This document shows, one piece after another, positions 2,360-63,838 of a DNA stretch of 64,000 bases. The notes under the pieces were generated by a model that worked only from the letters and a program-made list of their open reading frames with translations, made no database searches and was not told the origin of the DNA. The DNA lies in IMG/VR virus record IMGVR_UViG_2061766007_000583; one strand, given 5' to 3'. Made by a program: the position numbers and the translations under genes. The stretch's first letter is position 1. Every line of letters begins with the position of its first letter. Source of the DNA: an uncultured virus (IMG/VR IMGVR_UViG_2061766007_000583) (taxonomy: Duplodnaviria > Heunggongvirae > Uroviricota > Caudoviricetes).

Positions 2360-2363
2360 TTAT

Positions 2364-18057: not shown

Positions 18058-18071
18058 AACTTTATAATCAT

Positions 18072-48792: not shown

Positions 48793-49167
48793 CAAAATCA
48801 GAATTGAAATCCAAAACCACTTTCACAATTTACCGTGCTAAAGTGTTTCTGATATTCAAATATCAGAAAGCGAACATATGTTTGCCCCAATCCCCCATTA
48901 GGGTAATGCCGTAATGCGAAATTTTAACGGCTTGGCGATTCGCCCTTATGCGTGTGCGTATATGTATATAAGTACATAATTATAGATATATACAGTTAAA
49001 TATAACCGATATAATATTAATATTGAATTATAATTCAAATTCATAATTCAAATTCAATTTTGTAATTGATAATTAGAATTTATATGTATATACGTATATA
49101 CATTTCTGATATTTAAATATCATAATCAAACATAAAATAAAAAGGGTTTTTCAACCCTTTTTATTTT

Positions 49168-49395
49168 TTAAATTTCGTCATAATTTTCAAAATAGCCTAT
49201 TAACTTTTCGCCGTTGTAATAAACTTCAAGATAATCGCCGTTATCGTATTCTACAGAACCGATAAACTTATCAAACAAGGGTGATACTTCATCTTTGTCA
49301 ACAACTTCAACGAATAAATCAAACTCATACATATCAGTATTAACATTGTAAAGTGAATTAACTTCAATAACTTCATTACCTAAAAATTTTTTCAT
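49168..49395 (-). CDS. Cassette gene, acidic hypothetical protein
   Basis: Own promoter, RBS, terminator. Confidence 0.7.
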   Translation of the reverse strand: MKKFLGNEVIEVNSLYNVNTDMYEFDLFVEVVDKDEVSPLFDKFIGSVEYDNGDYLEVYYNGEKLIGYFENYDEI

Positions 49396-50231
49396 AACCT
49401 TAAATTCCTTTCTGTATTCGTGAACCATTTCACAATACTAGAATAACAAAACCCTTTTATGTTGTCAATACATTTTTAAAAAAAATTTTAAAAAATTTTA
49501 TCCGACATAGTTACACTCTGATATTTAAATATCAGAAATTCTGTTTTTGTTTTTGATTTCTGTTTCTGTTTTTAAATTCAAAATCAAATTCAAGTTTGAA
49601 ATCAAATTCAAATTCGAAAATAAAATATATATATTTAAGTTTGAAATCAAAAACAGAATTTATATTCATATTCTAAAATCAAAATTAGAATCCAAAACCA
49701 TATTATATTATTATAAATCATTTAACGGCTCTGTATTGAGTTTAAATATATCAGCCGATAAAAACTACAGTAATAATATTAAAATCAAATATAGGTCAAA
49801 ATAAAGCGTTATTGCTGATATTCAAATATCAGATTGAAATACAATATAAAAAAGGCTTTTCAGCCTTTTTTATATTTCAGCATACACTGTTTTGAAGAGG
49901 ACTTGCAAGGTGAAACATATTTCTGTTAAGGAGTTCTCTTTTAATTCTATTCATAAAAACCTTCTTTCCGACCCTTTAGGTCTAAATCTAAACTATTCGC
50001 AACACGTAAGCATTACCTTACAATAATATAATATCAAATTGCTGATATATTGTCAACAATTTTTTAAAAAATTTTTTACGCCCAATTTTTTTAGTCGGCA
50101 TTTCGCTGTACACCGATATTTAAATATGAGAAGTTTGTTATAATTTTAATAATAAATATTTTAATATTCAAATTTGTTTTTACNNNNNNNNNNAATTAAA
50201 TACAAAAATAAAAAAGGGCAGTTGCCCTTTT

Positions 50232-50609
50232 TTATAAACTGTAAAGATAATTCCAAAACTCTTCGGCTTCTTCGTATGATTTGCCATAGAAATACATTTC
50301 GTGTCCTATATAGGTCTCTTTTTCTCCAAATTTCTCTTCTATTTGATTTTTGAATCCACGAATTACATTAGATACTATATTATCACAAGATTTAACGCAT
50401 TCCTTAACTTCTTCTTCAGTAACAAAACCCAAACGAGAAGCACCATATAAATCGCTATAAATATCGTTGACTTTTCTATCTAATTGAGTAGTAACCAAAT
50501 TCTGTAATTTAATAGCCTTTATTACAGTATCGGCTGAATAAAAATGCTTTTCGAATCTTTCAATTGCTTCGTTTGTTGCAGTGAATAATAATGTTTCAAC
50601 TAATTTCAT
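50232..50609 (-). CDS. Cassette gene, hypothetical protein
   Basis: Own promoter, AAGGAG RBS, terminator. Confidence 0.75.
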   Translation of the reverse strand: MKLVETLLFTATNEAIERFEKHFYSADTVIKAIKLQNLVTTQLDRKVNDIYSDLYGASRLGFVTEEEVKECVKSCDNIVSNVIRGFKNQIEEKFGEKETYIGHEMYFYGKSYEEAEEFWNYLYSL

Positions 50610-51201
50610 AACCTTAATCTCCTTATTAAATAAAAATCTGTTAACGTGTGTTCGTCTTTCGACAATACAATCATATCAAACGGCTACAGTATTGTCAATA
50701 AAAAACTGCACAAAATTTTTAAATTTTTTTGTGCATTCTTGACTGCACTATGTTCGTGTCTGATATTTAAATATCAGAAATATCAAAANNNNNNNNNNTT
50801 CCGTCTTTCGACAATACAATCATATCAAACGGCTATAGTATTGTCAATAAAAAACTGCACAAAATTTTTAAAATTTTTTGTGCAGTTTTGACTGCACTAT
50901 GTTCGTGTCTGATATTTAAATATCAGAAATATCAAAACAGATATGTAAATATCGTATTGTAATTATAAAATCGCCCTTGCGAAATCGTGCGTTGGGTAAT
51001 TCGCTAATCGCCAATCGTTTGCCGACTGCCGAGATATAGTAATGATATAATAGTACATAATATTATATATATACAGTTATATATAACTGATACTGATATT
51101 TAAATATATTTATTCATAAAGCGAAAAATAAAAAGGACTTCGAAATTCGTTTTCGAAATCCTTTTTGAAAGAAGGTAGGTTATGAAAGAAAATTTTACTT
51201 G

Positions 51202-51423
51202 TTAGCCGTTGAATTTGTCGATTACATATCCACCGTCGTGACCTTGTTTCCAATAATGATAAACGCCGTTGGTGTCGTCAAATTCGATATAAATTCCACC
51301 GTCGTCACCATAATCTGCTTGAAAGAAAATCTTTGCGACTTCGAAAGTTCTTCCTTGAGCGTGAATCTTGTCACCGACTTCAACTTCGTGAACAGTCTCG
51401 TAACCGATATTTTTAATAATCAT
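51202..51423 (-). CDS. Cassette gene, hypothetical protein
   Basis: Own promoter, RBS, terminator; YHYWKQ..DGG. Confidence 0.75.
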   Translation of the reverse strand: MIIKNIGYETVHEVEVGDKIHAQGRTFEVAKIFFQADYGDDGGIYIEFDDTNGVYHYWKQGHDGGYVIDKFNG

Positions 51424-51827
51424 ATTTTTATTTCCTTCCTAAAATGTTTTGTTCCCTTTGTTTATCTTACAAACTTATTATATAACATAATAATAAATTT
51501 GTCAATAGTTTTTTGAAAAATTTTTTTTGTTTACTAAAATAAACATTTGTTTGCTTTTTGTTTAAAATATTAAACATTTCTGATATTTAAATATGATAAG
51601 CCTGCTGCCACTTTAGTTAATTAAAGCGTTAAAGTTTACATAAATAGTTTACATAATATAAAAATCTAATTTACTAAAAAATTTGTTTTGAGAGTAAAAA
51701 ATAAAATCTAGATTTAATTTATTCAGATTTAAAATTCAATTTCAAAATTAAATCTGATATTTAAATATCAAAATCGAAATCAAAAATAAAAAACCGAAAT
51801 CATAATTGAAATCGGTTTTTATTTTCG

Positions 51828-52199
51828 TTATGAGCAATAATACAAATCGTCTTCTATCTCTGTTAACTCTGTATCAGTAAACATTCTATGAAGTGCCTTT
51901 GAAGTTTTGCCACATTCTTTATAAATGCTTTTCGCTTCTTCTACACTGTAACCAAATTCATTTGCAAAATTTGTTAAATCTAAAGCGTTATCATATGCTT
52001 CCATATCACCAATTAAGCAATTCATAACTTCTTCTAATTTAGGCATTACATAATCAGTATTACACTGATACTCGAATTTATAACTCTTTCTGTTATAAAT
52101 TATCTTTCCTGCAAAAATAGTGTGATTACTTGTAAACTGTTTACTTTTAGGATTCTCTGCTTCTTCATAACTAAATTTAATCTTGTCTAAAATCATCAT
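51828..52199 (-). CDS. Cassette gene, hypothetical protein
   Basis: P.L..V..CL..D...FANEFGY motif; promoter and terminator. Confidence 0.75.
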   Translation of the reverse strand: MMILDKIKFSYEEAENPKSKQFTSNHTIFAGKIIYNRKSYKFEYQCNTDYVMPKLEEVMNCLIGDMEAYDNALDLTNFANEFGYSVEEAKSIYKECGKTSKALHRMFTDTELTEIEDDLYYCS

Positions 52200-52508
52200 A
52201 ACTTTGTACCTTCCTTTTCTGTTTTTGATTATAACTTATTCTAACATATAAATTTTTTATTGTCAATAGTTTTTTTAAAAAAAATTTAAGCAAAAATTTT
52301 TTACGTTTTATCACTCCGATATTCAAATATCATATTGGTTTACATAATATAATTACAGTTCAACCAACATAAACTGTAATCGTAATATACCTTTTAAAGT
52401 CACCAGAAGCCCCAAATTCGAACGAAAACATATTCTTTGATAAAATATACCTTAAAATAGTTTTCGTTCAAATATGAGCCAAATTTTGCGTTTTAAGACT
52501 ATATCGCC

Positions 52509-52658
52509 CTAGCGATACTCTGAAAAGACTTTTTGTTCATACTCGTCCCAATTCTTCTGCACCTTTGATTCAAGGCATACAACACCAAATATAAAGCATA
52601 AAAGCAATGAAAAGCATATTAAACAAAATTTCACATTCTTAATCTGTTCTTGATTCAT
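52509..52658 (-). CDS. Cassette gene, small TM protein
   Basis: AGGAGG RBS before ATG 52658; hydrophobic helix. Confidence 0.65.
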   Translation of the reverse strand: MNQEQIKNVKFCLICFSLLLCFIFGVVCLESKVQKNWDEYEQKVFSEYR

Positions 52659-52774
52659 AACACGTCCTCCTTTATTAACTAATATAATATTAACATAAAT
52701 ATTATATTTTGTCAAGTATAAAATTAATATTGTCTGATATTTAAATATCAGCGTTTAGTAATAAAAAAAGACCT

Positions 52775-52915
52775 TTAATCAAGGTCTTTCTGCAACTCTC
52801 TTTTAAGTCGTTTTCTGTCGTAATCCTTCGGCGATTTATGAGAGCGTGTTCCAGTGTTAAAGGGTACTAACACTCTATGCTTTTTATTCTTTTCTTTTAA
52901 CTGTTTTTTTGTCAT
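52775..52915 (-). CDS. Cassette gene, 46-aa basic peptide (ArfA/BrfA-like candidate)
   Basis: MTKKQLKEKNKKHRVLVPFNTGTRSHKSPKDYDRKRLKRELQKDLD; AAGGAAGG RBS; absent from ORF track. Confidence 0.7.
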   Translation of the reverse strand: MTKKQLKEKNKKHRVLVPFNTGTRSHKSPKDYDRKRLKRELQKDLD

Positions 52916-53246
52916 TTCTTTTAACCTTCCTTTTAATTAATNNNNNNNNNNNNNNNNNNNNNNNNNNNNNNNNNNNNNNNNNNNNNNNNNNNNNNNNNNN
53001 NNNNNNNNNNNNNNNNNNNNNNNNNNNNNNNNNNNNNNNNNNNNNNNNNNNNNNNNNNNNNNNNNNNNNNNNNNNNNNNNNNNNNNNNNNNNNNNNNNNN
53101 NNNNNNNNNNNNNNNNNNNNNNNNNNNNNNNNNNNNNNNNNNNNNNNNNNNNNNNNNNNNNNNNNNNNNNNNNNNNNNNNNNNNNNNNNNNNNNNNNNNN
53201 NNNNNNNNNNNNNNNNNNNNNNNNNNNNNNNGGGGTTAAAGGGGAT

Positions 53247-53552
53247 TTAGCAATCATAATCATAACAACCCATATAAGGATTAAATCCGATTTCATAATC
53301 ATAGTCGTCATAGTCTTCGATTTCTTCGTCTTCGGTCAATCCTTCAAGTTCATATTGTTCGTGAAAATATGTTTCTTCAAGCATTGCTTTTTCTGTTTCG
53401 TCTGCACATTCTACAAGCATTAAAACGAACAAATAAGCGTTTTCAAAAGTGTCGATTAAATATTCTTCTTCATAGTTGTTAACATTGATTTTAACGCCGT
53501 TTTCTACTCTGTAAATCTCATATTTGTTGCCGTTGATATTAAATTCTTTCAT
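53247..53552 (-). CDS. Cassette gene, acidic protein ending GFNPYMGCYDYDC
   Basis: Promoter, AAGGAG RBS. Confidence 0.75.
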   Translation of the reverse strand: MKEFNINGNKYEIYRVENGVKINVNNYEEEYLIDTFENAYLFVLMLVECADETEKAMLEETYFHEQYELEGLTEDEEIEDYDDYDYEIGFNPYMGCYDYDC

Positions 53553-53729
53553 AGGTTTATCTCCTTTCTTGATAATACAATATTAACATAAAAGGCTTTT
53601 CTTGTCAATATAAAAATTGCACAAATTAAAATTTATTTCGTTATGCATATTTTGGTTTACATAATATTAATTTCTGATATTTAAATATCGGATTTTGGTT
53701 TACATAAAAAAAGACCCTATTGGGTCTTT

Positions 53730-54083
53730 TTAGTATAGCGTTTCGTCGTATCTAACGGCGATTGTTTCATCCATTCTAGCGTGTCCACGCTCAATGGCTT
53801 CGTGTCTGTCTTTAGCACTAGCAAGACAACTCAAGCCGTTCTGTATTAAAAACTCGTTTAAATGTTTCGAAGTGGTTTTAGAATAGTTGTAATCCCTTCC
53901 AAAAGTTACAACTTTTCTAAATCCTAATCCACCTTCAGTGGCGATTTCACATACTCTAGAATCGTATGACTGAAATGCTACATAGGGTTTGTTGGTTACA
54001 TTAGAATTATAATGTAATATAAACTGATTTGCGTTAGCGTTGCCGTTGGCGTTGATTAACTGTGATACTAAAATTTCTGACAT
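53730..54083 (-). CDS. Cassette gene, hypothetical protein
   Basis: NQF...FQSYDS...YSKTTSKH motif. Confidence 0.75.
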   Translation of the reverse strand: MSEILVSQLINANGNANANQFILHYNSNVTNKPYVAFQSYDSRVCEIATEGGLGFRKVVTFGRDYNYSKTTSKHLNEFLIQNGLSCLASAKDRHEAIERGHARMDETIAVRYDETLY

Positions 54084-54268
54084 ATTACTTTTACCTTTCG
54101 AACCTATTTTTATCGGTTCGCCTTTCGTATTTGATAATACAATTATAACATATACATTTTTAAAGTCAATAGTTTTGAGTAAAAAAGTTGCATAAAATTT
54201 TTAAAAGTTTTTGTGCATATTTTATAATATATGATATTTAAATATCAGAAATAAATAATAAAAAATGG

Positions 54269-54472
54269 CTATTTCCATAGCCATTCGTATTCGTCCACGA
54301 GACGCATTTCAAGAACACAATAATAATCATAATCGCCCCAATCACGCTCTTCATAGGCAGATTCCTGCCAACGGCGTAATTCTTCCAAACGCTTCTTATA
54401 TTCGCACATAGCGTTATATGTAGCGTTTGTAAGTGTTGCAGTGATACCTTCAGAAATAATGATAGTCTTCAT
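54269..54472 (-). CDS. Cassette gene, hypothetical protein
   Basis: Promoter, AAGGAG RBS. Confidence 0.7.
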   Translation of the reverse strand: MKTIIISEGITATLTNATYNAMCEYKKRLEELRRWQESAYEERDWGDYDYYCVLEMRLVDEYEWLWK

Positions 54473-54631
54473 AAAATTTATCTCCTTTTTAAATACAATG
54501 TTTTCTTAACTTCTATAATTATAATATCACAATATAATAATTGTGTCAACACTTTTTTAAAAAAAATTTTTAATTTATTTTTAAGTATGATATTTAAATA
54601 TCAGAATAACAAATAAAAAAAAGAAAAGGCT

Positions 54632-54781
54632 TTATTCAGCCTTTTCAATCATTCTTGCTTTTGTAACTTCAGCAACTGCTTTCTGTCTTCTTCTGTACTC
54701 TTCAGCCGTCGGTTTGTTAAACGGCTCTATAACCTTTTCAAATCCTACAATTTTTTTGTTCTCAATAATCGCTCTTGTCAT
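54632..54781 (-). CDS. Cassette gene, 49-aa peptide
   Basis: MTRAIIENKKIVGFEKVIEPFNKPTAEEYRRRQKAV...; AAGGAG RBS; terminator overlaps stop. Confidence 0.65.
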   Translation of the reverse strand: MTRAIIENKKIVGFEKVIEPFNKPTAEEYRRRQKAVAEVTKARMIEKAE

Positions 54782-55033
54782 AATTTTAATCTCCTTTTAA
54801 ATGTTTTGTTTACGTTTAATAAGTTCTTCGTGAGTGTTCATAAAGTTTCCGATTGATTCAACCATTCACCCTATTACTTCCGTTCCCTTATCTTGATTAT
54901 ATATTATCATATTATGATATATAAGTCAATACTTTTTTGAAAAAATATTGCACAATTTTTTTAAAATTTTTTGTGCATATTTTTTATTTATGATATTCAA
55001 ATATCAGAATTGAAAACAAAAAAATAAAAGGGT

Positions 55034-55162
55034 TTACACCCTTTTATAATATTCAAGCCACGTCAAAGCGTTTGTTTCGTCGTCAAGGTCATACAATTCA
55101 ATACCTTCTTTAATCATTTCGTCATAAGTTAAAATGTTTCCGTTCTGTAAATTCATAAACAT
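55034..55162 (-). CDS. Cassette gene, 42-aa acidic peptide
   Basis: MFMNLQNGNILTYDEMIKEGIELYDLDDETNALTWLEYYKRV; AGGAGG RBS. Confidence 0.7.
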   Translation of the reverse strand: MFMNLQNGNILTYDEMIKEGIELYDLDDETNALTWLEYYKRV

Positions 55163-55269
55163 AGGCTTTGCCCTCCTTTATTATGTTATAAGTATAACAT
55201 AATATTATAATATTGTCAAGTATTATTTTTATATTGTCTGATATTTAAATATCATATTTTACGCAAACA

Positions 55270-55490
55270 AAAAAAGCAAACCGAATCTTATTACTGACGT
55301 TTGCTTCTTGTGATAGACCTTGAGTGCATTAGGGGTCTATCGTGGTCTGATTTGCTAGGCTCAAAGCCTACACGCCCAAACGATTTAAAAATCGTTACAC
55401 CCGACCTAAAAGCGTGTCCCAACGGATATTGTATGACTAACAGTCAGTTAAGGGGGACTTCTCATAACTCCTTGCTCCTTTTTTTTATTA
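55270..55490 (-). ncRNA. Cassette expressing a structured RNA with a 5-codon minigene
   Basis: Promoter 55498-55526, AGGAG RBS, ATG AGA AGT CCC CCT TAA, then about 7 hairpins ending in a terminator. Confidence 0.55.
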
Positions 55491-55744
55491 TGTATATATA
55501 ATATCACAATATAAAAACATTGTCAATACTTTTTTTAAAAAAATTTTTTAAAAAAATTTAACGCAATATTTGGCTCTGTATTGCGTTTAATTTAATTAGG
55601 TATAGATTTATACCTAAAATAATATAAAATTAAATGTAGGGCATTCTGTGACGTTTAAAAGGTATTGTATGATTTACTGTATATGTTTTTACAATATATA
55701 AATATGATATTTAAATATCAATTACGAAACAAAAAAATAAGGGA

Positions 55745-56131
55745 TTACTCCCTTATTTCAAATTCCTTGTAATGGTCATATTTGAGTTTAAATACATTCA
55801 AGTCAATTTCTGCATTAACTTCTACACCGATATAACCATCTTTTACATAGGTGGATTTAAACTCCTTGTAAATATCAATCGTTGTCAATTCGTTTAAATT
55901 GAATTTTAAAATTTCTTCAACAAGTTTTTCATTTTTAAATTCTCCAAACAACTGATTGATTAAACTGAATTTTGACATTAAGTCTTCTACATAAAATTCT
56001 AAATCAATACCGTCTTCGCTAATCATTTGTTTTGCTCTTCTTACAATATAATCAATAGGGTCTTCGCTACAATTGATTAATTCGTTAACTTCGATTTCAG
56101 GATAAATATTATACTTGAGTTTTAAATTCAT
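55745..56131 (-). CDS. Cassette gene, hypothetical protein
   Basis: Promoter, AAGGAG RBS. Confidence 0.75.
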   Translation of the reverse strand: MNLKLKYNIYPEIEVNELINCSEDPIDYIVRRAKQMISEDGIDLEFYVEDLMSKFSLINQLFGEFKNEKLVEEILKFNLNELTTIDIYKEFKSTYVKDGYIGVEVNAEIDLNVFKLKYDHYKEFEIRE

Positions 56132-56272
56132 ATTTTTGTTCTCCTTTTCTTTTGATACTATAACTATATCATATTATAATATAGTTGTCAATACTTTTTT
56201 TTGAAAAATTTTTATTTTATGATATTTAAATATCATAATTAATCAAAAATAATAAAGGGATTTCTCCCTTTA

Positions 56273-56641: not shown

Positions 56642-56783
56642 TTTTAAATCTCCTTTGTTATTTGATAATAATAATATATCATATTACAACATATTTGTCA
56701 AGTGTTTTATAACATATTTGTTAAATTTCTGATATTTAAATATCATATACCTAGTAAAATAAAAAAGTGGGTTGCCCCACTTT

Positions 56784-57053
56784 TTATGCTTTAGTTACAT
56801 ATTCAAGTAAACCTTCGTATAAATCGTTTACGTTTTTTCCTTCCATTTTAGAATTAATTGTCGGCATATATTTTCCTTCGCCTTTACAGTAAAATAAAAT
56901 AACTCCGTCTTCGTCAAACACCATATAATCGCAAGACTTCGGCACGTTACCTTGAAGTCCCCAAAGTTTTAATAAAGAACTTGCGAGACCTTCCATAATT
57001 GTTTTAACTTCTCCGTTCTTTCTTGTGAATAATACTGAATAATTGTTCTTCAT
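56784..57053 (-). CDS. Cassette gene, hypothetical protein
   Basis: Promoter, RBS, terminator. Confidence 0.75.
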   Translation of the reverse strand: MKNNYSVLFTRKNGEVKTIMEGLASSLLKLWGLQGNVPKSCDYMVFDEDGVILFYCKGEGKYMPTINSKMEGKNVNDLYEGLLEYVTKA

Positions 57054-57286
57054 AATTTTAATCTCCTTTAATGTTTTGTTTTATCTTATGTATACATTAT
57101 ATCATATTACAATAAATTGTCAACACTTTTTTGAAAAAAATTTAAAAAATATTTTTAAAAAACCTATTGACAAAACAATAATAAATGTGTTATAATGGAA
57201 TTGATACCAAATTATACAACAATATTGTACAATATGATATTTAAATATCAGAAAACAGACAAAAAGAAAAAGCCTTTCGGCTTTTC

Positions 57287-57511
57287 CTAGTCAATCTCTT
57301 TCAAGATTGTTTTTGCTTTTAAAATTAAGTCATAATCTTCGCACTCGTCAAGTACCATATAACAATAATCCTTGATTGCTTTAGGGTCATTATCAAGTGT
57401 ATCTTCGATATAAGCAAGTGGCTCGAAATCGAATGAAATATCTTCATATGAGTAAGGGTCAAAGTCTTTCATTAAATTGTCGATTAAAAAAATTAACTGT
57501 TCTTTGTTCAT
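57287..57511 (-). CDS. Cassette gene, acidic protein (DFDPYSYED)
   Basis: Promoter, RBS, terminator. Confidence 0.75.
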   Translation of the reverse strand: MNKEQLIFLIDNLMKDFDPYSYEDISFDFEPLAYIEDTLDNDPKAIKDYCYMVLDECEDYDLILKAKTILKEID

Positions 57512-57666
57512 AATGTTTTCTCCTTTGTTAACAATGTTTTGTTTTATTTGATAATACTATTATAACACCTTGATTTTATATGTCAATACTTTTTTAAAAA
57601 TTTTTTTCAAAAAAATTTTATTTTATGATATTTAAATATCATAAAGTGTTAGAATTAAAAATGGCT

Positions 57667-57846
57667 TTAAGCCATTTCTAATTCATAGATAATTCTTTCA
57701 GCACTTGCTAAATTTGAATAAATTCTAGCATAACTGTAATCTGTAACATATTTAGCAACGCCACGATAATAACTTTTTAAATAAAGTTTTCTTCCTTCTT
57801 CGATTTTAAAAATCTTGTAGCCATTCCAAACTCTTAATGTTTTCAT
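57667..57846 (-). CDS. Cassette gene, 59-aa protein
   Basis: MKTLRVWNGYKIFKIEEGRKLYLKSYYRG...; AAGGAG RBS; absent from ORF track. Confidence 0.7.
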   Translation of the reverse strand: MKTLRVWNGYKIFKIEEGRKLYLKSYYRGVAKYVTDYSYARIYSNLASAERIIYELEMA

Positions 57847-57990
57847 TTGATTGTTGCTCCTTTCCTTTAACTATATATACTATATCATATTATAATATTC
57901 TTGTCAATATGTTTTTGAAAAATATTTTTATTTTCTGATATTCAAATATCAGCGACAATAAAAAAAAGAAAAGGGCTTTTCGCCCTTCTC

Positions 57991-58494
57991 TTAAATCTTT
58001 TCTCCACTCTCGATAGCGTTTACACACTTTTCATATCCTTTATATTTACTGAAAAGTCTTAATCCGTCAAGTGTTTTAAGGTTTAATTCATTACCCCTTA
58101 AATCTCTACATTTAACCACCATTGATTTAGGATTATCAAATCTCTTTTCGTAACTGTTTACAAGTTTTGTAATTGACTGAAAACCTTGTATTTCGTTACC
58201 AATGAATTTAGCATTTCCAAAGTTATCATATTTAGGTGCGTATCCTAAAGATTCAAGCCAAGCAGTAATATCAGCAGTGGGATTTTTAACGCTCAACTCA
58301 AGTGTATAATAAGAACTTGTTGCCTTATCACTTGCAGTGTTTGTTGCAATTCTCTTCATTGCTTTGTGCTTTGCTTCTTCTTCACAGTGGGGACAAACAA
58401 AACCATAATTCTTCTGTCCACGATAAACCTTTTTACATAAACTCTTGTGAATTTCTACTCCACAACCTACACAATTAACCATAACTTTTGACAT
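57991..58494 (-). CDS. Cassette gene, zinc-finger protein (related to 47986-48507)
   Basis: CVGC...CPHC; AGGAGG RBS. Confidence 0.75.
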   Translation of the reverse strand: MSKVMVNCVGCGVEIHKSLCKKVYRGQKNYGFVCPHCEEEAKHKAMKRIATNTASDKATSSYYTLELSVKNPTADITAWLESLGYAPKYDNFGNAKFIGNEIQGFQSITKLVNSYEKRFDNPKSMVVKCRDLRGNELNLKTLDGLRLFSKYKGYEKCVNAIESGEKI

Positions 58495-58670
58495 AATTTT
58501 AATCCTCCTTTTTGGATTTCTTGTTTGTTTTTATCTTACAATACATATTATATACTATTAGTTTTTATTTGTCAATACTTTTTTTAAATTTTTTAAAATT
58601 TTTTTTCTTACAATATTTTCTGATATTCAAATATCAGAATCAAAATCGAAAAAAGAATAGGACTTTCGCC

Positions 58671-58997
58671 CTATTCAAAAATCTCGTATAAAGATTTTTT
58701 ATAATTCCATTCGCCTTTTACTTGCATTTCTGCATAGTATGTAGCCATTTCATAGAGTTTCAAAATACTATCAGTTTCTAAAATCAATTCCCAATCTCTA
58801 GGGCAAAATGCTTGATATTCGGATTTTGCACTCTTATAAACGATTCCAGAGTATAACCAATTTTGACCATAATCGAAATAAATATCTTCAACTGTTAACC
58901 TAAAATCCGACACTACAGTATTTACAAATACACAAAACGATTCAAGTCTTATTCTTTCAACTGTACCCATTGTATAAGTTTTAATTTTATTAGCCAT
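58671..58997 (-). CDS. Cassette gene, hypothetical protein
   Basis: VEDIYFDYGQNW...YQ...PRD motif. Confidence 0.75.
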   Translation of the reverse strand: MANKIKTYTMGTVERIRLESFCVFVNTVVSDFRLTVEDIYFDYGQNWLYSGIVYKSAKSEYQAFCPRDWELILETDSILKLYEMATYYAEMQVKGEWNYKKSLYEIFE

Positions 58998-59168
58998 TTT
59001 CTGACCCTCCTTTATTTTATATACTTATTATATAGGATTAAAATTTATTTGTCAATACTTTTTTTAAAAAATATTTTTATATACATNNNNNNNNNNNNNN
59101 NNNNNNNNNNNNNNNNNNNNNNNNNNNNNNNNNNNNATTAAAAAGGGACTTATAAAGTCCCTTTTATT

Positions 59169-59480
59169 TTACCACAATTCCGATTCAACAACTTCTCTTT
59201 GTACGGCAACTGATTCTTGATTAAGAATTTTTTTAATGTTTTCAACAATCTCTTTTACTGTAGTTTTTTCGATAAACATTAATTCAATTCTTAATGTTTT
59301 TTCGGTTACAAAACTGCCGTCGTCGTGCTTGTAAATTCCGTCGGCTTCAAAAATTGTCGCTCCGTCTGTATAAGATAATAATAATTTCTTAATTATCTTA
59401 TATGCTTCAAGTGTTGATACTTCTTGAATTTTTGTGTCCTTGTCATTAAGTCCTACATAAAGTGTAAATTTTTCAATCAT
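59169..59480 (-). CDS. Cassette gene, putative SAM lyase (PII-like/DUF3574-type)
   Basis: GAT...GIY...EKTLRIE...LNQESV motif pattern. Confidence 0.6.
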   Translation of the reverse strand: MIEKFTLYVGLNDKDTKIQEVSTLEAYKIIKKLLLSYTDGATIFEADGIYKHDDGSFVTEKTLRIELMFIEKTTVKEIVENIKKILNQESVAVQREVVESELW

Positions 59481-59914
59481 TTTGGTTGCCTCCCTTGTTT
59501 TGATTATGGACTAATTATATCATACCATTTCTAACTTGTCAAGAAAAAAATGCACAAATTTTAAAAATTTTTTTGTACAATTTTACCACACTGTATATTA
59601 CATTCTGATATTTAAATATCAGAAAAAATCATACTATACTTATACAACGCAATATTTCGCCCTATATGGCGTTTTATATTTTACCCCTTGCGTAATGCGT
59701 GAAAATAAATTAAGTGCCGAGCCGAGCCGTATAATGCGTTATACATATATATTATACATAATTATAGATAAGTATAGTTATATATAACTGATATTCTAAT
59801 ATCATATATACAATAAAGAAAAAAGGCAATGCATTTTGCAAAGCCTTTTTTCAAACTCAAAACATTGTATAGGAGGGTTTTATGCCAAAGCAACTTTCGT
59901 TGCTTATTGCCATT

Positions 59915-60247
59915 TTATAATTCAGATAAAGGAACATAAATCTTTTCAATTTCAGATTCAGAATCTGAATCGTCTTCTTCATCTTCTTCTTCGTCGTCGT
60001 CCCAATAATCGTCTTCATCTTCTTCTTCAGTATCAAGACCAATTTGTTCAAAAATCCATTCATCTTCGAACCATAAAAGGTCATTTACTTCTGTCATTGT
60101 TGGAATTTCATCGCCATAATATGATTCAAGAAAGTTCATTAATTCATCTTCGTAACCATATTCTTCAACTGTTTTAAGAGTATCTTCTGCACCACTCCAA
60201 CAAGCATTAACTAAATCATTAAAATCATAATAATTCTTAATTTCCAT
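59915..60247 (-). CDS. Cassette gene, highly acidic protein (DNA-mimic candidate)
   Basis: WSGA.DT...T..NDLLWFE plus poly-D/E tract; two tandem promoters. Confidence 0.75.
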   Translation of the reverse strand: MEIKNYYDFNDLVNACWSGAEDTLKTVEEYGYEDELMNFLESYYGDEIPTMTEVNDLLWFEDEWIFEQIGLDTEEEDEDDYWDDDEEEDEEDDSDSESEIEKIYVPLSEL

Positions 60248-60521
60248 TTTGTTATCTCCTTTTGTTCTTTTCCTTACCTTGTAAATACATTATAGCATAT
60301 TACTTTTAATTTGTCAAGCATTTTTTTTATTTTATTTTTGCTTTTTTATATTTACTTTCCGTTCCCTTATTTGTTAAATACATTATAGCATAAGTATAAA
60401 GTTTTGTCAAGAAAAAGTTTTAAATTCAAAATCGAGTTTGGAATCATATATGATATTTAAATATCAGAATTTGATAAATGAAAAACGGATTCAAATTCGA
60501 AAATCAGAATCCGTTTTGTTT

Positions 60522-60926
60522 TTAGTCTTTTAAATTAACATATCCAAGTATATATTCTTCATCAGAATAAATCTTGTTGTTTGACGGATAATCACAACTA
60601 ACATTAAATACTAAACCTTCTTTTTCTGCAAGTTTTAATACTTCACGTACTGCATAATCATAAGGCATTCTTCTTGTTTTGCAAAAACTAAATTCGTCAA
60701 GTTCGTCATTATTAAGAACAAAACTCTCACAATATAATTTTTTATCGCTATTTGCATTGCCATTAAAAGCGATTCTATCAACTGTAATTGTGGGTGCATC
60801 TTGTCCATCCCAGTCTCTAATAGCAATCCCTTTTTTAGCACAATCTTTTAAAATCTCTCTAACACTATTACAAAATTCTTCAGTAATAGGTTTAGTTGTT
60901 CTTGTCCAATATCTTGTAAAACCCAT
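60522..60926 (-). CDS. Cassette gene, conserved phage protein
   Basis: MGFTRYW...FNG...ESF...FCKT.R.PYD.AV. Confidence 0.75.
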   Translation of the reverse strand: MGFTRYWTRTTKPITEEFCNSVREILKDCAKKGIAIRDWDGQDAPTITVDRIAFNGNANSDKKLYCESFVLNNDELDEFSFCKTRRMPYDYAVREVLKLAEKEGLVFNVSCDYPSNNKIYSDEEYILGYVNLKD

Positions 60927-60937
60927 ATCTTTCTCCT

Positions 60938-61153
60938 TTACTCTCCTAATAACATTCTTCTGTCTTCATCATAATAAAAAGTTCTTGTTTTGGTAGTTAT
61001 TTTATACATACCATTGTTATTATTCTTAACGCAATCATAAACTTTAAGTCTATCTGCTACTTCTAATTGATAGCCTACTTCGTTTAAACTGCATTCGGAA
61101 TAAATAATTTCCATATTTGTTTTACCATCAGTGGTTGAGTACCATCTTCTCAT
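60938..61153 (-). CDS. Cassette gene, hypothetical protein
   Basis: GGAGG RBS. Confidence 0.7.
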   Translation of the reverse strand: MRRWYSTTDGKTNMEIIYSECSLNEVGYQLEVADRLKVYDCVKNNNNGMYKITTKTRTFYYDEDRRMLLGE

Positions 61154-61354
61154 ATCTGTTTCCCTCCTTCGATAATACTACTATATCATATTATAATAAA
61201 TTTGTCAATAGTTTTTTTTATTCTTTTTAAAAATTTTTTTATTCGCTTTAAGATAATTTAAAGCGAATAACTGATATTTAAATATCAGAATACAAAATAA
61301 AAAACAGTCGCAAGGCTTTTGACCTCACGACTGCAACAAAGGAAGGTAACAAAA

Positions 61355-61972
61355 TTATGAATAAAAACTTCTCGCTTGATTGAAAAGTTTATTCTGCATA
61401 TTTTCTTTAGTGGGTTTTTCGTTTTCTATTCTAGGTAAACCATAAACCTTGTTAACAAAATTCGGAATTGTAGAATATCTTTTGATAATCTGTTTGTGTA
61501 CTTCGGCTTCTGTTCTTTTATCGTTTGGAATAACCCAATCATTCCAATTTCTATAATAGTCAACGCCTTTATCATTAAGTATTTTAATTTCAAAATTACA
61601 ACTTCCGTCGTGGTGACTGCAATGTACGAACAAGTGTCCGTTTTCGTCATAGATTTTATAATTCCAACAATCTTCAATCATACTGAAAAATGCGTCTTTA
61701 AAATCTCCAAAGATTTTTCCACCACTATAAACGCCGTCCCACCTTCCGATACTACCAAAACAAATTATCTCTTTGTCTTCAAAGAATCTTGATAATTCTT
61801 CAAGTGTGATATCAAAATCCATTGCACAAATATCATAAGCACAATTCTCGATTTCGTCGTCGTCAAATTCTTCTCCACTCTCTTTTAAACATTCTTCTGC
61901 ATCTTTGAAATATACGTCCATATCGTAATTATCAAAGATAATTCTTTCTTTAGCAATAGTGTTCTTTCTCAT
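61355..61972 (-). CDS. Cassette gene, hypothetical protein
   Basis: GRWDG...HHDG motif; GGAGG RBS. Confidence 0.75.
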   Translation of the reverse strand: MRKNTIAKERIIFDNYDMDVYFKDAEECLKESGEEFDDDEIENCAYDICAMDFDITLEELSRFFEDKEIICFGSIGRWDGVYSGGKIFGDFKDAFFSMIEDCWNYKIYDENGHLFVHCSHHDGSCNFEIKILNDKGVDYYRNWNDWVIPNDKRTEAEVHKQIIKRYSTIPNFVNKVYGLPRIENEKPTKENMQNKLFNQARSFYS

Positions 61973-62039
61973 ATAAAAGCCCTCCCTTTTGTTTATATAA
62001 CTATATTACCATACAATGTTTATTTTGTCAAGTACTTTT

Positions 62040-62300
62040 TTAACAATTACACCAAAAATCTTCTTCAACAAAACTTATGTGTCCGTATGCCTTTTCAAGA
62101 ATTGAATAAGGAATATCGTCTGCATAAGATAAATTATTAATAAATTCAACGTCTTCAGCCGATAAATCAAAATCAATATTATCAGAATAAAATAATTCTT
62201 CCTTTAATTGTATTAATTCGTCTTCAGTGCATTCATTTAAACCAAAATAAGTATCTCTCATAATTGTTCTCCCTTCTTGAGTATATACATAGTATATCAT
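62040..62300 (-). CDS. Cassette gene, acidic protein
   Basis: EL..LK...Y....FVEEDF motif; true start may be 62261. Confidence 0.7.
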   Translation of the reverse strand: MIYYVYTQEGRTIMRDTYFGLNECTEDELIQLKEELFYSDNIDFDLSAEDVEFINNLSYADDIPYSILEKAYGHISFVEEDFWCNC

Positions 62301-62419
62301 ATTATGTTTTTCTTGTAAATAGTTTTCAGTAAAATTTTATAAAAAATTTATAATTGTATGATATTTAAATATCAAAATTAATTTCAAAATCTGATATTCA
62401 AATATCATATATTATCCAT

Positions 62420-62985
62420 AAAATAAAAAAGGACTTGTCACCTACCACAAGTCGCTTTTACTTTACATTGTTAACAGTTACAGTTAAAGGGAAAGTATCG
62501 CCACAATACTTTCCCTTTAACTTTTTCTATACCCTATTGTACTTCTAGGCTATAGGTGGCTATGGTTTTATGCTTTTCTTTTACAACCTTGCACGGACAC
62601 CTATCCACTTGGTTGACACGCTTTTTATTCCGTCTAAAAACTCTGTATATCAAAACTGACTCTCTTAACGCAATGTTACGGCACTTTTTATACTAGGTAT
62701 GAAAATATGCGAACAAAATTTCTACCTCTCTTAACGCAATTTTACGATTCGTTTCTCTCGGTCTGTAAACGCAATCAAATCTCTACCTATCTTCACGCAA
62801 TCTTACGCTCATAGGTTTTCACTAGGATATAAAACCTTTAGTAATTAAAATTTCTACCTATCTTTAAGAGTATTATCTATGAGTATTACCATTTTAACAC
62901 TCTAGGCAATATTTACCAACTTTTGGCAGTCAACCTATCTTAACGCAATTTTACGAGAAAAACTATAACGTCTTTTTTATTATGT
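62420..62985 (-). ncRNA. Non-coding cassette with tandem ~33-nt repeats and hairpin spacers
   Basis: Promoter 62990-63018; repeats at 62651, 62714, 62776, 62846 (partial), 62928; 16-bp hairpin 62483-62521; no substantial ORF. Confidence 0.65.
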
Positions 62986-63026
62986 ATTTATTATAACATA
63001 ATCATTTTTATTTGTCAAGTACTTTT

Positions 63027-63386
63027 TTAATAATTTCTTAAATTTATTAAAACTTTTTCGTACTCAACTAAAAACTTATCGTTATCGAAAATATCTTCAA
63101 GGGCAAGTCTTCTCTTATCAGTTAATTTTGTATAGCCGTTTTCTTCCTTGAATTTGTTTTCAAGATATTTTCTACGATTATCAATCAATTCACGTACTGC
63201 ACCACACATAACAGTCTGAAATCTGTAACATTCCCACGTTCTGTTAGAATAGTTACAAGTATGTTTTACCTTTTCAACATTATTAATAAATAATGTTGTA
63301 TCGTGTGCGAATCCGTGTCTAGTGTTTCTGTACTCGTTTACAAATTCATATTCTTTGTCGCCTACAGTAAATTTTTTAATTTCCAT
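63027..63386 (-). CDS. Hypothetical protein (GF.H...NRTWE.Y.FQTV)
   Basis: GGAGG RBS, promoter. Confidence 0.75.
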   Translation of the reverse strand: MEIKKFTVGDKEYEFVNEYRNTRHGFAHDTTLFINNVEKVKHTCNYSNRTWECYRFQTVMCGAVRELIDNRRKYLENKFKEENGYTKLTDKRRLALEDIFDNDKFLVEYEKVLINLRNY

Positions 63387-63420
63387 TTTTGTTCCCTCCT
63401 TTGTTTACTGTAATTATATA

Positions 63421-63648
63421 TTACCACAAATCAAATTCAATGTCAAGATATTTTATTAAATTTGTTAAAATTTCTTTTAAGTCTTCATTATGATAAGGCA
63501 TTGCAGTTTTTATTGCATTATTTGGATTATCTTCTACATAATATATATAGATATATCCGTTATTAATATCAATTTTATCTACAAACTTATATATATCTTT
63601 TAATATATTATTTAAATGATTTAATTCTTTAATAGTAATAATGGTCAT
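63421..63648 (-). CDS. Cassette gene, hypothetical protein
   Basis: Promoter, RBS. Confidence 0.65.
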   Translation of the reverse strand: MTIITIKELNHLNNILKDIYKFVDKIDINNGYIYIYYVEDNPNNAIKTAMPYHNEDLKEILTNLIKYLDIEFDLW

Positions 63649-63838
63649 ATCTTTGTACTTCCTTTCTTTAATCTAAAACTAGAATATCATATAATTTTTA
63701 TTTTGTCAATAAGGAATTTTATATTATCTGATATTCAAATATCAATATAGTTTTGAATATTGTAATATTGAATTTCTGATATTTAAATATCAGAAATTCA
63801 AAACATAAAAAGGAATAGGATTTCCTATTCCCTTTTCA

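What the first reader, a model, noticed from the sequence alone, without database searches (positions are those of the whole stretch)
48848..63794. Array of ~25 autonomous gene cassettes delimited by a conserved 16-20 bp palindrome
Seen: about 32 copies of (TC)TGATATT[T/C]AAATATCA(GA). The T form is a perfect palindrome. I noticed none before 48.8 kb. The usual unit, read on the - strand, is palindrome, A-tract, TTGACA-17-TATAAT promoter, strong RBS, one or two short ORFs or an RNA, intrinsic terminator, then the next palindrome. Cargo genes are unrelated to each other and look like host-takeover or anti-defence genes. The site sits about 20-90 bp upstream of the -35, not on it, and variation is mostly at the centre and outer ends. 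Inference: either a recombination site for integron-like shuffling of accessory cassettes (comparable in logic to PeSL elements of T4-like phages), or a binding site for one phage protein that silences, condenses or partitions the whole early region (parS-like 16-mer). No recombinase is visible in this window.
Basis: partly seen in the sequence, partly recalled or inferred. Interest (0 to 1): 0.9.

Follow-up and report, generated by a model that had tools for sequence, protein, structure and literature searches.

The report
Conserved palindrome punctuating phage early-gene units
An uncultured cattle-gut phage separates about thirty small, self-promoted early genes with one nearly invariant 20-base palindrome placed just behind each transcription terminator, most likely the docking site of a still unidentified DNA-binding protein.

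Summary
TGATATTYAAATATCA occurs exactly at 26 places and with up to 2 mismatches at 32 places in 48850-63792, against 0 and 1.3 expected. One copy is a scaffold duplicate. The conserved unit is a 20-bp dyad with sharp edges. All copies lie between genes.

The array is a run of host-type promoter, ORFan and terminator units on the minus strand of a large AT-rich phage.

It follows 17 of 18 terminators within 10-24 nt. Its distance to the -35 box ranges from 19 to 111 nt, and 6 of 27 strong promoters lack it.

Metagenomic relatives at 73-85% DNA identity keep the dyad invariant while the flanks and cargo change.

Strain-level breakpoints fall in the inter-unit modules. Only about 3 of 8 fall at or between palindromes.

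No recombinase or DNA-binding protein was recognised in the window.

Best reading: an operator or boundary site for a dimeric protein, within PeSL-like shuffling modules. An integron-like mechanism is not supported. Earlier notes of this scan describe the same kind of array on other phage DNA.

The parts
48850..63792 (-). Early-gene array: about 25 promoter-ORF(s)/RNA-terminator units, all read on the minus strand, punctuated by 32 (31 real) copies of the dyad
63777..63792 (.). palindrome, exact T form; 14 nt after terminator 63836-63807
63729..63744 (.). palindrome, exact C form; 19 nt before -35 of promoter 63709-63681
62392..62407 (.). palindrome, exact C form; 24 nt after terminator 62453-62432
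62359..62374 (.). palindrome, exact T form; 39 nt before -35 of promoter 62319-62291
61272..61287 (.). palindrome, exact T form; 16 nt after terminator 61334-61304; 63 nt before -35 (61208)
60451..60466 (.). palindrome, exact T form; 40 nt before -35 (60410)
59789..59804 (.). palindrome, 1-2 mismatches; followed by the second conserved element and a non-coding stretch, no consensus promoter
59606..59621 (.). palindrome, exact T form; 63 nt before -35 (59542); orthologous copies in L133, L122, L098
58621..58636 (.). palindrome, exact C form; 18 nt after terminator 58676-58655; 45 nt before -35 (58575); homology with a contig of run X5 ends at 58638
57936..57951 (.). palindrome, exact C form; 14 nt after terminator 57992-57966; 28 nt before -35 (57907)
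57626..57641 (.). palindrome, exact T form; 39 nt before -35 (57586)
57235..57250 (.). palindrome, exact T form; 14 nt after terminator 57288-57265; 111 nt before -35 (57123)
56730..56745 (.). palindrome, exact T form; 16 nt after terminator 56785-56762; 28 nt before -35 (56701)
56220..56235 (.). palindrome, exact T form; 10 nt after terminator 56279-56246; 28 nt before -35 (56191). The 510 bp to site 56730 are absent from a contig of run X9
55705..55720 (.). palindrome, exact T form; 13 nt after terminator 55759-55734; nearest strong promoter is 178 nt away
55239..55254 (.). palindrome, exact T form; 19 nt before -35 (55219)
54991..55006 (.). palindrome, exact C form; 17 nt after terminator 55047-55024
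54588..54603 (.). palindrome, exact T form; 19 nt after terminator 54646-54623; 38 nt before -35 (54549)
54232..54247 (.). palindrome, exact T form; 15 nt after terminator 54286-54263; 62 nt before -35 (54169)
53675..53690 (.). palindrome, 1 mismatch; 17 nt after terminator 53731-53708; 66 nt before -35 (53608)
52735..52750 (.). palindrome, exact T form; 14 nt after terminator 52791-52765; 19 nt before -35 (52715)
52317..52332 (.). palindrome, 1 mismatch (C form); 50 nt before -35 (52266)
51755..51770 (.). palindrome, exact T form; no consensus promoter of 10/12 or better within 160 nt
51581..51596 (.). palindrome, 1 mismatch; 75 nt before -35 (51505)
51094..51109 (.). palindrome, 2 mismatches; 20 nt after terminator 51166-51130; followed by the second conserved element
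50910..50925 (.). palindrome, exact T form; 62 nt before -35 (50847)
50761..50776 (.). palindrome copy inside a 149-bp scaffold duplicate (run of 10 N); not an independent site
50114..50129 (.). palindrome, 2 mismatches; 57 nt before -35 (50056). The only terminator (50235-50208) not closely followed by a site lies 78 nt upstream
49816..49831 (.). palindrome, exact C form; 11 nt after terminator 49876-49843; no consensus promoter downstream
49519..49534 (.). palindrome, exact T form; 50 nt before -35 (49468)
49107..49122 (.). palindrome, exact T form; 11 nt after terminator 49167-49134; followed by the second element and a non-coding stretch
48850..48865 (.). last palindrome of the array (C form); no terminator or promoter next to it
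42236..42251 (.). weak outlier (2 mismatches) outside the array, upstream of the promoter of ORF 41173-42063
49440..63709 (-). 27 strong sigma-A-type promoters (TTGACA-16/17-TATAAT, 10-12 of 12 matches, most with TG before the -10 box); 21 have the palindrome 19-111 nt upstream.
49134..63836 (-). 18 intrinsic-terminator hairpins on the minus strand; 17 are followed by the palindrome within 10-24 nt. Coordinates are listed
57991..58494 (-). cargo gene A, 167 aa, basic, N-terminal four-Cys motif; 82-89% identical in relatives L121, L131 and L132; function unknown
59169..59480 (-). cargo gene C, 103 aa; DUF3574 at 28.8 bits (cut-off 25); 71-89% identical in L098 and L122
58671..58997 (-). cargo gene B, 108 aa; replaced by unrelated genes at the same place in L121 and L132 and in a contig of run X5
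49168..63648 (-). about 26 further small cargo ORFs with ribosome-binding sites (42-205 aa); 17 of the 30 listed have pI 5.0 or less; no paralogs.

Best explanation
The 20-bp dyad T[C/A]TGATATTT[A/G]AATATCA[G/T]A is a double-stranded recognition site for one sequence-specific, two-fold symmetric (dimeric) DNA-binding protein. That protein is either encoded elsewhere in the phage genome or supplied by the host.

The site marks the non-transcribed gap between successive early transcription units. It lies 10-24 nt behind the terminator of one unit and 19-111 nt ahead of the -35 box of the next.

The promoters are near-consensus sigma-A promoters with an extended -10 box and A/T tracts, so they should fire without help. 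The bound protein therefore most likely acts negatively or as a boundary. It could silence or insulate the whole early block together, for instance at the early-to-middle switch or in a carrier state. It could also back up each terminator as a roadblock.

As a by-product, the conserved terminator-dyad-A/T-tract-promoter module gives related phages short patches of homology at which units are lost, gained and replaced, as with PeSLs.

Shown: the site, its extent, its placement, its conservation and the cassette mosaicism. Inferred: that a protein binds it, and what the binding does.
For: 1. Site statistics. There are 26 exact and 32 near-exact copies against 0 and 1.3 expected.
2. Sharp edges. 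Information content is high over 20 bp and falls to about 0 within 2-3 bp outside. The outer positions vary symmetrically (C/A on the left, G/T on the right).
3. Only full dyads count. Half-sites outside the dyads are no commoner in the array than elsewhere (0.26 against 0.25 per kb for the 8-mer).
4. Placement. All 32 copies lie outside the supported ORFs in a region that is 51% coding.
5. Conservation. In alignments with relatives of 64-73% mean column identity, 21 consecutive columns at the dyad are invariant.
6. Not a folded single-strand element. As single-stranded DNA it folds at only -2.1 to -2.4 kcal/mol. It also lies downstream of the terminator T-tracts and upstream of the promoters, so it is mostly untranscribed.
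7. Partner features. 17 of 18 terminators are followed by it within 10-24 nt, and 21 of 27 strong promoters have it upstream.
8. Promoter strength. Promoters score 10-12 of 12 and most have TG before the -10 box, so an activator is not needed.
9. Precedents for many dispersed copies of one operator read by one regulator. L5-type stoperators: 20-30 sites per genome (PMC6550527, passages read). KorB acting from distal OB sites (PMC11790492, abstract and passages read).
Against: No DNA-binding protein of any recognisable family is present in the 64-kb window. This rests on Pfam scans of 86 ORFs, and a PHROGs scan of 33 ORFs. Two basic zinc-motif candidates gave nothing in the Atlas or in PDB sequence searches.

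The rest of the genome could not be read.

The site does not overlap the promoters, so simple occlusion of RNA polymerase is excluded.

Helical phasing to the -35 box is not established. R is about 0.5 with naive p about 0.003, but p is 0.62 once paralogous promoter families are collapsed. Orthologous promoters in relatives differ in spacing by 4, 17 and about 35 bp.

Six strong promoters in the array, and the consensus promoters at 46.3-46.5 kb, lack the site. About 7 sites have no consensus promoter behind them.

All 9 central A-to-G variants face the same way relative to transcription. A purely symmetric reader does not predict this. Strand composition bias may account for part of it.
Confidence: 0.55

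Rival explanations
1. Recombination seam as the primary function. The palindrome is the crossover site of a dedicated site-specific recombinase, so the array would be an integron-like cassette platform. Alternatively it is the abutting 10-bp terminal inverted repeats of small mobile cassettes that insert at its central TA.
For: Cassette-level mosaicism is real. L132 carries an extra unit of about 485 bp between two palindromes that L121 lacks. A contig of run X9 lacks exactly the 510 bp between sites 56220 and 56730. Homology of an X5 contig ends at 58638, two bases past palindrome 58621-58636. Cargo between the conserved anchors differs among three relatives. The fixed position just behind each unit's 3' end resembles the placement of attC.
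Against: Most breakpoints are not at the palindrome. Examples are 60524|61355 at two ORF stop codons, 49897 and 50194 beside terminators, and 62714|62958 inside a non-coding unit. In the window against L121, homology runs through the palindrome and the next terminator, and only the ORF is replaced.

A symmetric site would allow inversions, yet every unit is on one strand.

No recombinase or transposase was found in the window.

The site folds weakly as single-stranded DNA, unlike attC.

Conservation stops 10 bp from the centre, which is short for terminal inverted repeats.

Breakpoints come from contigs laid at 85% likeness, so they are approximate.
Confidence: 0.12
2. Passive homology patch only. 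The dyad is simply the best-conserved part of a PeSL-like terminator/promoter module. It is kept uniform by gene conversion among the copies and has no protein partner of its own.
For: The PeSL precedent: sigma-70 promoter, AT-rich region and stem-loop next to ORFans in hyperplastic regions, with recombination between them (PMC2839356, section 13 and abstract read; PMC4122927, abstract read). Here too, promoters and terminators are shared between units and with many other rumen contigs. Loose ends and joints cluster at promoter cores.
Against: Gene conversion would homogenise flanks as well. Here conservation is confined to 20 bp with sharp edges and exact two-fold symmetry. The dyad stays invariant in relatives whose adjacent promoter and terminator sequences have diverged to 64-73%. 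A patch of 16-20 bp is short for efficient homologous exchange; this last point is established knowledge, not tested here.
Confidence: 0.13
3. Protein-free DNA structure. The AT-rich perfect palindrome extrudes as a cruciform, or alters the downstream duplex, and so strengthens the adjacent intrinsic terminator or acts as a supercoiling boundary.
For: The spacing to the terminator is tight and conserved (10-24 nt in 17 of 18 cases; about 14-16 nt in relatives by reading the sequences printed). The sequence is a perfect dyad with an AT-rich centre.
Against: The hairpin is weak (-2.1 to -2.4 kcal/mol; in the two folds, 28 and 9 of 200 shuffles fold as well). A structural role would tolerate compensated changes, yet the sequence itself is invariant, not merely the pairing. 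Fourteen or fifteen sites have no terminator within 80 nt upstream.
Confidence: 0.05

Closest known systems
PeSL (promoter-early stem-loop) regulatory cassettes of T4-type phages (Arbiol et al. 2010, PMC2839356, abstract and section 13 read; Comeau et al. 2014, PMC4122927, abstract read)
   Same: Both have strong host-type early promoters with an AT-rich upstream region and a terminator stem-loop. Both repeat these dozens of times next to ORFans in a plastic region. In both, indels and replacements between close relatives are bounded by these modules.
   Different: PeSLs are described as promoter plus G/C-rich stem-loop and have no invariant dyad. Here a separate 20-bp AT-rich perfect palindrome sits between terminator and promoter and is far better conserved than either. 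The phage is not T4-like: it has a PolIII-alpha replication module, and its nearest isolates are Clostridioides phages at 41%. Mini-circles were not testable.
Stoperators of L5-type (Cluster A) mycobacteriophages (PMC6550527, passages read; PMC9283540, abstract in the search listing)
   Same: One short site is repeated 20-30 times, mostly not inside promoters, and is read by a single phage regulator. Site sequence differs between related phages.
   Different: Stoperators are asymmetric, oriented with transcription, spread over the whole genome and bound by a monomeric immunity repressor of a temperate phage. Here the site is a perfect dyad confined to the early array. Neither a repressor gene nor a temperate lifestyle is shown.
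KorB-OB long-range silencing on plasmid RK2 (PMC11790492, abstract and passages read)
   Same: A palindromic operator present in many copies at variable distances from the promoters it controls. Action at a distance does not need fixed helical phasing.
   Different: KorB is a ParB-family CTPase that works with KorA. No ParB-like protein is seen in this window. There are about 31 sites in 15 kb, each at a unit boundary.
Host-takeover module of Bacillus phage SPO1 (PMC6873191, abstract in the search listing; details recalled)
   Same: A block of about two dozen small early genes in many short sigma-A transcription units with their own promoters and terminators, in a large Firmicute phage.
   Different: As far as I recall, no repeated palindrome between the SPO1 units has been described. 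There is no sequence relationship.
Integron cassette arrays (attC/attI with IntI); features recalled from established knowledge
   Same: A row of unrelated accessory genes, each followed at its 3' end by an imperfectly repeated palindromic site.
   Different: attC sites are 57-141 bp, fold as single strands and need a tyrosine recombinase, and the cassettes lack promoters. None of this holds here.
Conserved inverted repeats (CIR operators) of Streptomyces phage phiC31 (recalled; no paper found in the library)
   Same: A 17-bp inverted repeat present many times in the early region and bound by the phage repressor.
   Different: phiC31 is temperate and has a known repressor gene. This comparison is from memory only.

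Membership tests
PeSL-type regulatory cassettes | sigma-70-type early promoter with an AT-rich upstream region | tested here: met
   27 promoters at 10-12 of 12 matches, with A/T tracts upstream
PeSL-type regulatory cassettes | stem-loop terminator within the same intergenic module | tested here: met
   18 hairpins followed by T-runs; 30 terminator-like sites against 4.2 expected
PeSL-type regulatory cassettes | located in a plastic region next to ORFans | tested here: met
   Of 33 ORFs scanned, one is above a Pfam cut-off (DUF3574), and the PHROGs hits are of unknown function. Cargo differs among relatives
PeSL-type regulatory cassettes | indels and replacements between relatives bounded by the modules | tested here: met
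   Breakpoints at 58638, 56164|56675, 60524|61355 and 49897/50194 all lie in or at the edge of inter-unit modules. One (62714|62958) does not
PeSL-type regulatory cassettes | excised mini-circles | not testable with these tools
   Only assembled contigs were available for the runs laid
Integron | adjacent tyrosine recombinase (IntI) | tested here: not met
   No recombinase among the 86 ORFs of the window scanned against Pfam. The rest of the genome was not available
Integron | attC-type site that folds as single-stranded DNA | tested here: not met
   The site is 16-20 bp and folds at -2.1 to -2.4 kcal/mol as single-stranded DNA
Integron | promoterless cassettes read from a common promoter | tested here: not met
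   Each unit has its own consensus promoter
Stoperator arrays (L5-type) | asymmetric site oriented with transcription | tested here: not met
   The site is a perfect dyad in 19 of 32 copies. Only the central variant shows an orientation bias (9 of 9)
Stoperator arrays (L5-type) | cognate immunity repressor gene | tested here: inconclusive
   None recognised in 64 kb. The genome is incomplete
ParB/KorB with parS/OB | ParB-family CTPase encoded by the element | tested here: inconclusive
   No ParB-like hit in the window. The rest of the genome was not seen
ParB/KorB with parS/OB | palindromic sites at variable distance from the controlled promoters | tested here: met
   A 16-20 bp dyad at 19-111 nt from the -35 box
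Class I activator site (CAP-like; positions recalled) | fixed helical face relative to the promoter | tested here: inconclusive
   R is about 0.5 with naive p about 0.003. After collapsing promoter families p is 0.62. Orthologs differ by 4, 17 and about 35 bp

The most novel reading that the evidence does not exclude
The dyad anchors a dedicated boundary system not yet described. One dimeric protein docks 10-24 nt behind every early terminator. From there it insulates or switches off about 30 strong host-type transcription units together. Its sites also serve as the seams at which units are exchanged within a large pool of rumen phages. Earlier notes of this scan report the same layout with other 19-20 bp palindromes in other uncultured gut and rumen phages. 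If those notes hold, this would be a widespread, lineage-specific way of punctuating phage early-gene arrays.
Probability: 0.2. Interest if true: 0.8.

Novelty: new variant of a known kind. Interest (0 to 1): 0.6.

Why it matters
Early or host-takeover regions are where large phages keep their least understood genes, including anti-defence genes. How such arrays of very strong promoters are shut off, insulated and reshuffled is known for only a few model phages.

This array offers a sharply defined 20-bp site. It is conserved across strains from several independent cattle-gut data sets, so the question becomes directly testable: find what binds the 20-mer and what happens when it is mutated.

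If a dedicated regulator exists, it would control the whole early programme of the phage and define immunity-like specificity groups among related phages. The conserved inter-unit modules also explain how these phages exchange accessory genes.

Tried and rejected
- Whole genome: not held, so no genome-wide motif scan or regulator search was possible.
- Isolated phages: no DNA-level relative was found. The nearest PolIII-alpha matches are Clostridioides phages at 41%.
- IMG/VR scan for the 16-mer: 29 contigs, all with a single site, and no array.
- Five IMG/VR relatives by PolIII-alpha (53-66%): 0 of 5 records hold the motif at up to 2 mismatches. They show no repeated palindrome and no dense promoter array in their contigs.
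Most of the 124 stretches belong to an unrelated dispersed repeat with long shared flanks. Only three contigs are relatives.
- More of those contigs could not be fetched.
- Species-genome scan: 24 single hits in scattered taxa and no array. L181 has two copies, but they are terminator stems of an unrelated peptide/regulator locus. There is therefore no sign of a host regulon, though only the exact 18-mer was searched.
- Relatives of cargo genes in IMG/VR: none for gene A. Five were found for gene C, without arrays. The repeat in L196/L197 is a pentapeptide-repeat gene.
- L065, with two clusters of three related dyads: the neighbouring ORFs gave no DNA-binding family.
- Candidate binders: gene A, ORF 47986-48507 and ORF 39012-39383 gave nothing usable in the Atlas or PDB sequence searches.
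- Rfam: only tRNA hits pass the gathering threshold. All permissive hits in the array are below it.
- Helical phasing and class-I-activator geometry: considered but not supported after correcting for promoter families.
- No RNA holder was listed among the sequencing runs, so transcript ends could not be examined.
- Literature searches for a description of such a palindrome found none. Doron et al. 2016, named in earlier notes, was not in the library.
- Structure prediction, complex prediction and the large protein searches were not used, because no candidate justified them.

Full report
**What the window is**

The 64-kb window is 25-31% G+C. Its layout is as follows.
- 26-2912, plus strand: the end of a lysis and tail module with a holin, a GH25 endolysin and a fibre repeat.
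- About 3-46 kb, minus strand: a replication and nucleotide module. It holds PolIII-alpha, a RecD-like helicase, a DnaB-like helicase with a LAGLIDADG insert, NrdD and its activase, a ThyX-like protein, an AAA_24 protein and two N6/N4 methyltransferases.
- 48.85-63.8 kb, minus strand: a dense run of very small genes.

No whole genome is held. No isolated phage is close at the DNA level. The nearest PolIII-alpha proteins of isolates are Clostridioides phages at 41% identity.

Contigs from four further cattle or gut metagenome runs, of four different studies, carry long stretches that are 95-99% identical. This is therefore a recurring, uncultured gut phage of a low-GC bacterium. The sigma-A-type promoters, the GGAGG-type ribosome sites, the anaerobic NrdD and the peptidoglycan hydrolases all fit a Firmicute host. 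The host itself was not identified.

- The 16-mer occurs exactly at 26 places: 19 perfect palindromes and 7 with a central C on the plus strand. No match appeared in 100 shuffles.
- With up to two mismatches there are 32 sites in 48850-63792 and one weak outlier at 42236. About 1.3 are expected.
- A position matrix of the 32 sites shows that the conserved unit is 20 bp and two-fold symmetric out to its outermost positions (C or A on the left mirrored by G or T on the right). Information content drops to about zero within two or three bases outside.
- All nine central A-to-G variants face the same way relative to transcription.
- Half-sites outside the dyads are not enriched in the array.
- All sites lie outside supported ORFs, although half of the region is coding.
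- One site is not independent. The 149 bp around a run of ten N (50651-50799) duplicate the neighbouring sequence, and contigs of two independent runs join 50650 to 50800 directly.

**Anatomy**

On the minus strand the scans find 30 terminator-like hairpins where 4.2 are expected. They also find many 11-12/12 matches to TTGACA-17-TATAAT, mostly with TG before the -10 box.

The unit is: terminator, short T-rich linker, dyad, A/T tracts, promoter, ribosome site, then one or two small ORFs or a non-coding stretch.

- Of 18 terminator hairpins, 17 are followed by the dyad after 10-24 nt, with a median of about 15. The same spacing of about 14-16 nt is seen in the relatives' sequences (read by eye).
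- The distance to the -35 box ranges from 19 to 111 nt.
- Six of 27 strong promoters in the array have no dyad within 120 nt. Most of these are internal promoters with no terminator in front; one is the second of a tandem pair and one lies 178 nt from a dyad.
- About seven dyads have no consensus promoter within 160 nt behind them.
- The consensus promoters at 46.3-46.5 kb, just outside the array, also lack it.

The dyad therefore marks boundaries between transcription units and is not a part of the promoter.

**Helical phasing**

The distances to the -35 box cluster near 19, 28, 39, 50 and 62 nt. A Rayleigh-type test over periods of 10-11.5 bp gives R of about 0.5-0.57 and p of about 0.003 if every promoter is treated as independent.

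Promoters with equal spacing are visibly paralogous. When the distances are collapsed to distinct values, the signal disappears (p = 0.62).

Orthologous promoters also differ in spacing.
- Upstream of gene A: 45 nt in the window, 49 in L121 and 28 in L132.
- Upstream of gene C: 63 nt in the window against 28 in L122.

I therefore do not claim a fixed helical face. Earlier notes of this scan on other phages do claim one, but I could not test those genomes.

**Cargo**

The 33 ORFs scanned in and beside the array gave one Pfam hit above cut-off: DUF3574, for 59169-59480. PHROGs hits, where present, were to families of unknown function. Of the 30 listed ORFs, 17 have pI 5.0 or below. No two are paralogous.

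This fits a host-takeover or anti-defence block, as in SPO1 (PMC6873191, abstract in the search listing), but no function was shown. No recombinase, transposase, ParB or recognisable DNA-binding domain is present anywhere in the window.

The basic, cysteine-motif proteins 57991-58494 and 47986-48507 are the only loose candidates. Atlas and PDB sequence searches gave nothing usable for them.

**Relatives**

The IMG/VR scan with the 16-mer found only single sites. Five IMG/VR relatives at 53-66% PolIII-alpha identity have no such motif and no comparable array in their contigs.

The metagenome scan with the 18-mer was swamped by an unrelated dispersed repeat. It did recover three related contigs:
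- JAEEGL015879353.1 (four fragments, six sites);
- Ga0247609_10391353 (five sites in 1468 bp);
- Ga0247609_10113221.

These are 73-85% identical to window cassettes. In alignments whose mean column identity is 64-73%, the dyad and its two flanking bases form 21 invariant columns. The species-genome scan gave 24 isolated hits in scattered taxa and no array.

**Recombination test**

Gene order around the conserved gene A differs among relatives.
- Window: A, B, C.
- Ga0247609_10113221: A, X, an unread stretch of about 1.1 kb, then C.
- JAEEGL015879353.1: A, Y, X, a short gap, then Z.

B, X, Y and Z are unrelated to each other.

L132 has one whole extra unit of about 485 bp between two dyads that L121 lacks.

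Contigs of other runs, laid on the window, show the following.
- A 510-bp deletion equal to the spacing of dyads 56220 and 56730.
- A replacement that starts at 58638, two bases past a dyad.
- A replacement between the stop codons at 60524 and 61355.
- Divergence at 49897 and 50194, beside terminators.
- A 243-bp deletion, 62715-62957, inside a non-coding unit.

In the window against L121, homology runs through the dyad and the next terminator, and only the ORF is exchanged.

Exchange therefore happens in the inter-unit modules, as described for PeSLs (PMC2839356, section 13). It is not focused on the dyad centre.

Three further points weigh against a site-specific, integron-like mechanism: the uniform orientation of all units despite a symmetric site, the weak single-strand fold, and the absence of a recombinase in the window. 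None of these excludes it. The breakpoints come from contigs laid at 85% likeness and are approximate.

**Most likely mechanism**

A sharp-edged, exactly symmetric 20-bp sequence that works only as a full dyad, stays invariant while its surroundings drift, and sits in untranscribed DNA is what an operator for a dimeric protein looks like.

The promoters are near-consensus and should be constitutively strong, so an activator is unnecessary. The site does not overlap them, so simple occlusion is excluded.

The remaining options are:
- action at a distance, such as silencing by spreading, sliding or looping, as KorB does from distal OB sites (PMC11790492);
- action at the terminator, where a bound protein 10-24 nt behind the hairpin would block polymerases that read through and insulate each unit;
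- a purely architectural role.

I put 0.55 on 'protein-binding boundary/operator site, with PeSL-like shuffling as a by-product'. The rivals are a dedicated recombination or transposition seam at 0.12, a passive homology patch at 0.13 and a protein-free structure at 0.05. The rest is unassigned.

**Novelty**

Literature searches for such a palindrome in phage early regions found no description. The closest published kind is the PeSL, and the logic of many dispersed copies of one operator is known from L5 stoperators and KorB.

Within this scan, AI notes report the same layout with other 19-20 bp palindromes in other uncultured gut, rumen and marine phages. The pattern therefore recurs, and this is not its first sighting.

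I rate it a new variant of a known kind and of moderate to high interest, because the site is defined well enough for a direct binding test.

Noticed in passing
window 50651-50799: A run of ten N sits inside a 149-bp duplicate of the neighbouring palindrome-and-promoter region. Contigs of runs X4 and X5 join 50650 to 50800 directly, so this is a scaffolding artefact.
   Followed up: yes
window 48866-49100, 50926-51090, 59622-59790 (minus strand); also L098, L133, L134: A second conserved element lies directly behind three palindromes: a 12-14 bp AT palindrome, then about 10 nt, then a TATAAT-containing 12-mer. It is followed by a non-coding stretch of about 100 nt, richer in G+C, that ends at the next palindrome. 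It is conserved in relatives. Fold z-scores are only -1.8 to -2.0 and there is no Rfam match. It may be a small RNA unit with an unusual promoter.
   Followed up: partly
window 48714-48793: Three copies of a different 18-bp dyad (GGTTAGT-N4-ACTAACC; 0 expected) lie between the last palindrome and the convergent plus-strand genes. Possibly another operator set or an origin-like region.
   Followed up: no
window 50707-50735, 50856-50884, 54949-54977; partial copies near 53618, 54211, 59551; also L132 and L098: A second inverted repeat of about 29 bp (TGCACAAAA ... TTTTGTGCA) lies between the palindrome and the -35 box in the subset of promoters with about 62-nt spacing. Possibly a sub-regulon operator.
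   Followed up: partly
window 42191-42270 and 63752-63767: A 16-mer (TATTACAATATTCAAA) occurs three times exactly. Two copies flank the weak palindrome at 42236, upstream of the promoter of ORF 41173-42063. One copy lies between the tandem palindromes at 63.75 kb.
   Followed up: no
window 62432-63018 (minus strand): A 12/12 promoter (63018-62990) is followed by about 530 nt without a supported ORF, up to terminator 62453-62432. A contig of run X5 lacks 62715-62957. Possibly a long non-coding RNA unit.
   Followed up: no
window 17956-18058 (minus strand): Rfam calls a second tRNA of 103 nt (43.3 bits) next to tRNA-Gln, but ARAGORN does not report it. It may be a tRNA with an insertion.
   Followed up: no
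window 33274-35877 (minus strand): A DnaB-like helicase ORF carries LAGLIDADG/Hom_end domains in its middle, which suggests an intein or a homing-endonuclease insertion.
   Followed up: no
window 59915-60247 (minus strand): A 110-aa protein with 43 Asp/Glu residues (pI 4.1) matches phrog_5149, of unknown function. It looks like a DNA mimic.
   Followed up: no
loci L040-L162 other than L098, L121, L122, L131-L134: About 110 metagenome contigs from two sample series carry the same 18-mer at the centre of an unrelated dispersed repeat with about 50 bp of shared flanks on each side. It looks like a MITE-like element of some AT-rich organism.
   Followed up: partly
L065 2717-2804 and 12055-12108: A 40% G+C metagenome contig has two clusters of three related dyads sharing the same inner 14-mer. 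They lie 9.3 kb apart and bracket a block of small genes that includes LuxS and a HicA-like ORF. Function unknown.
   Followed up: partly
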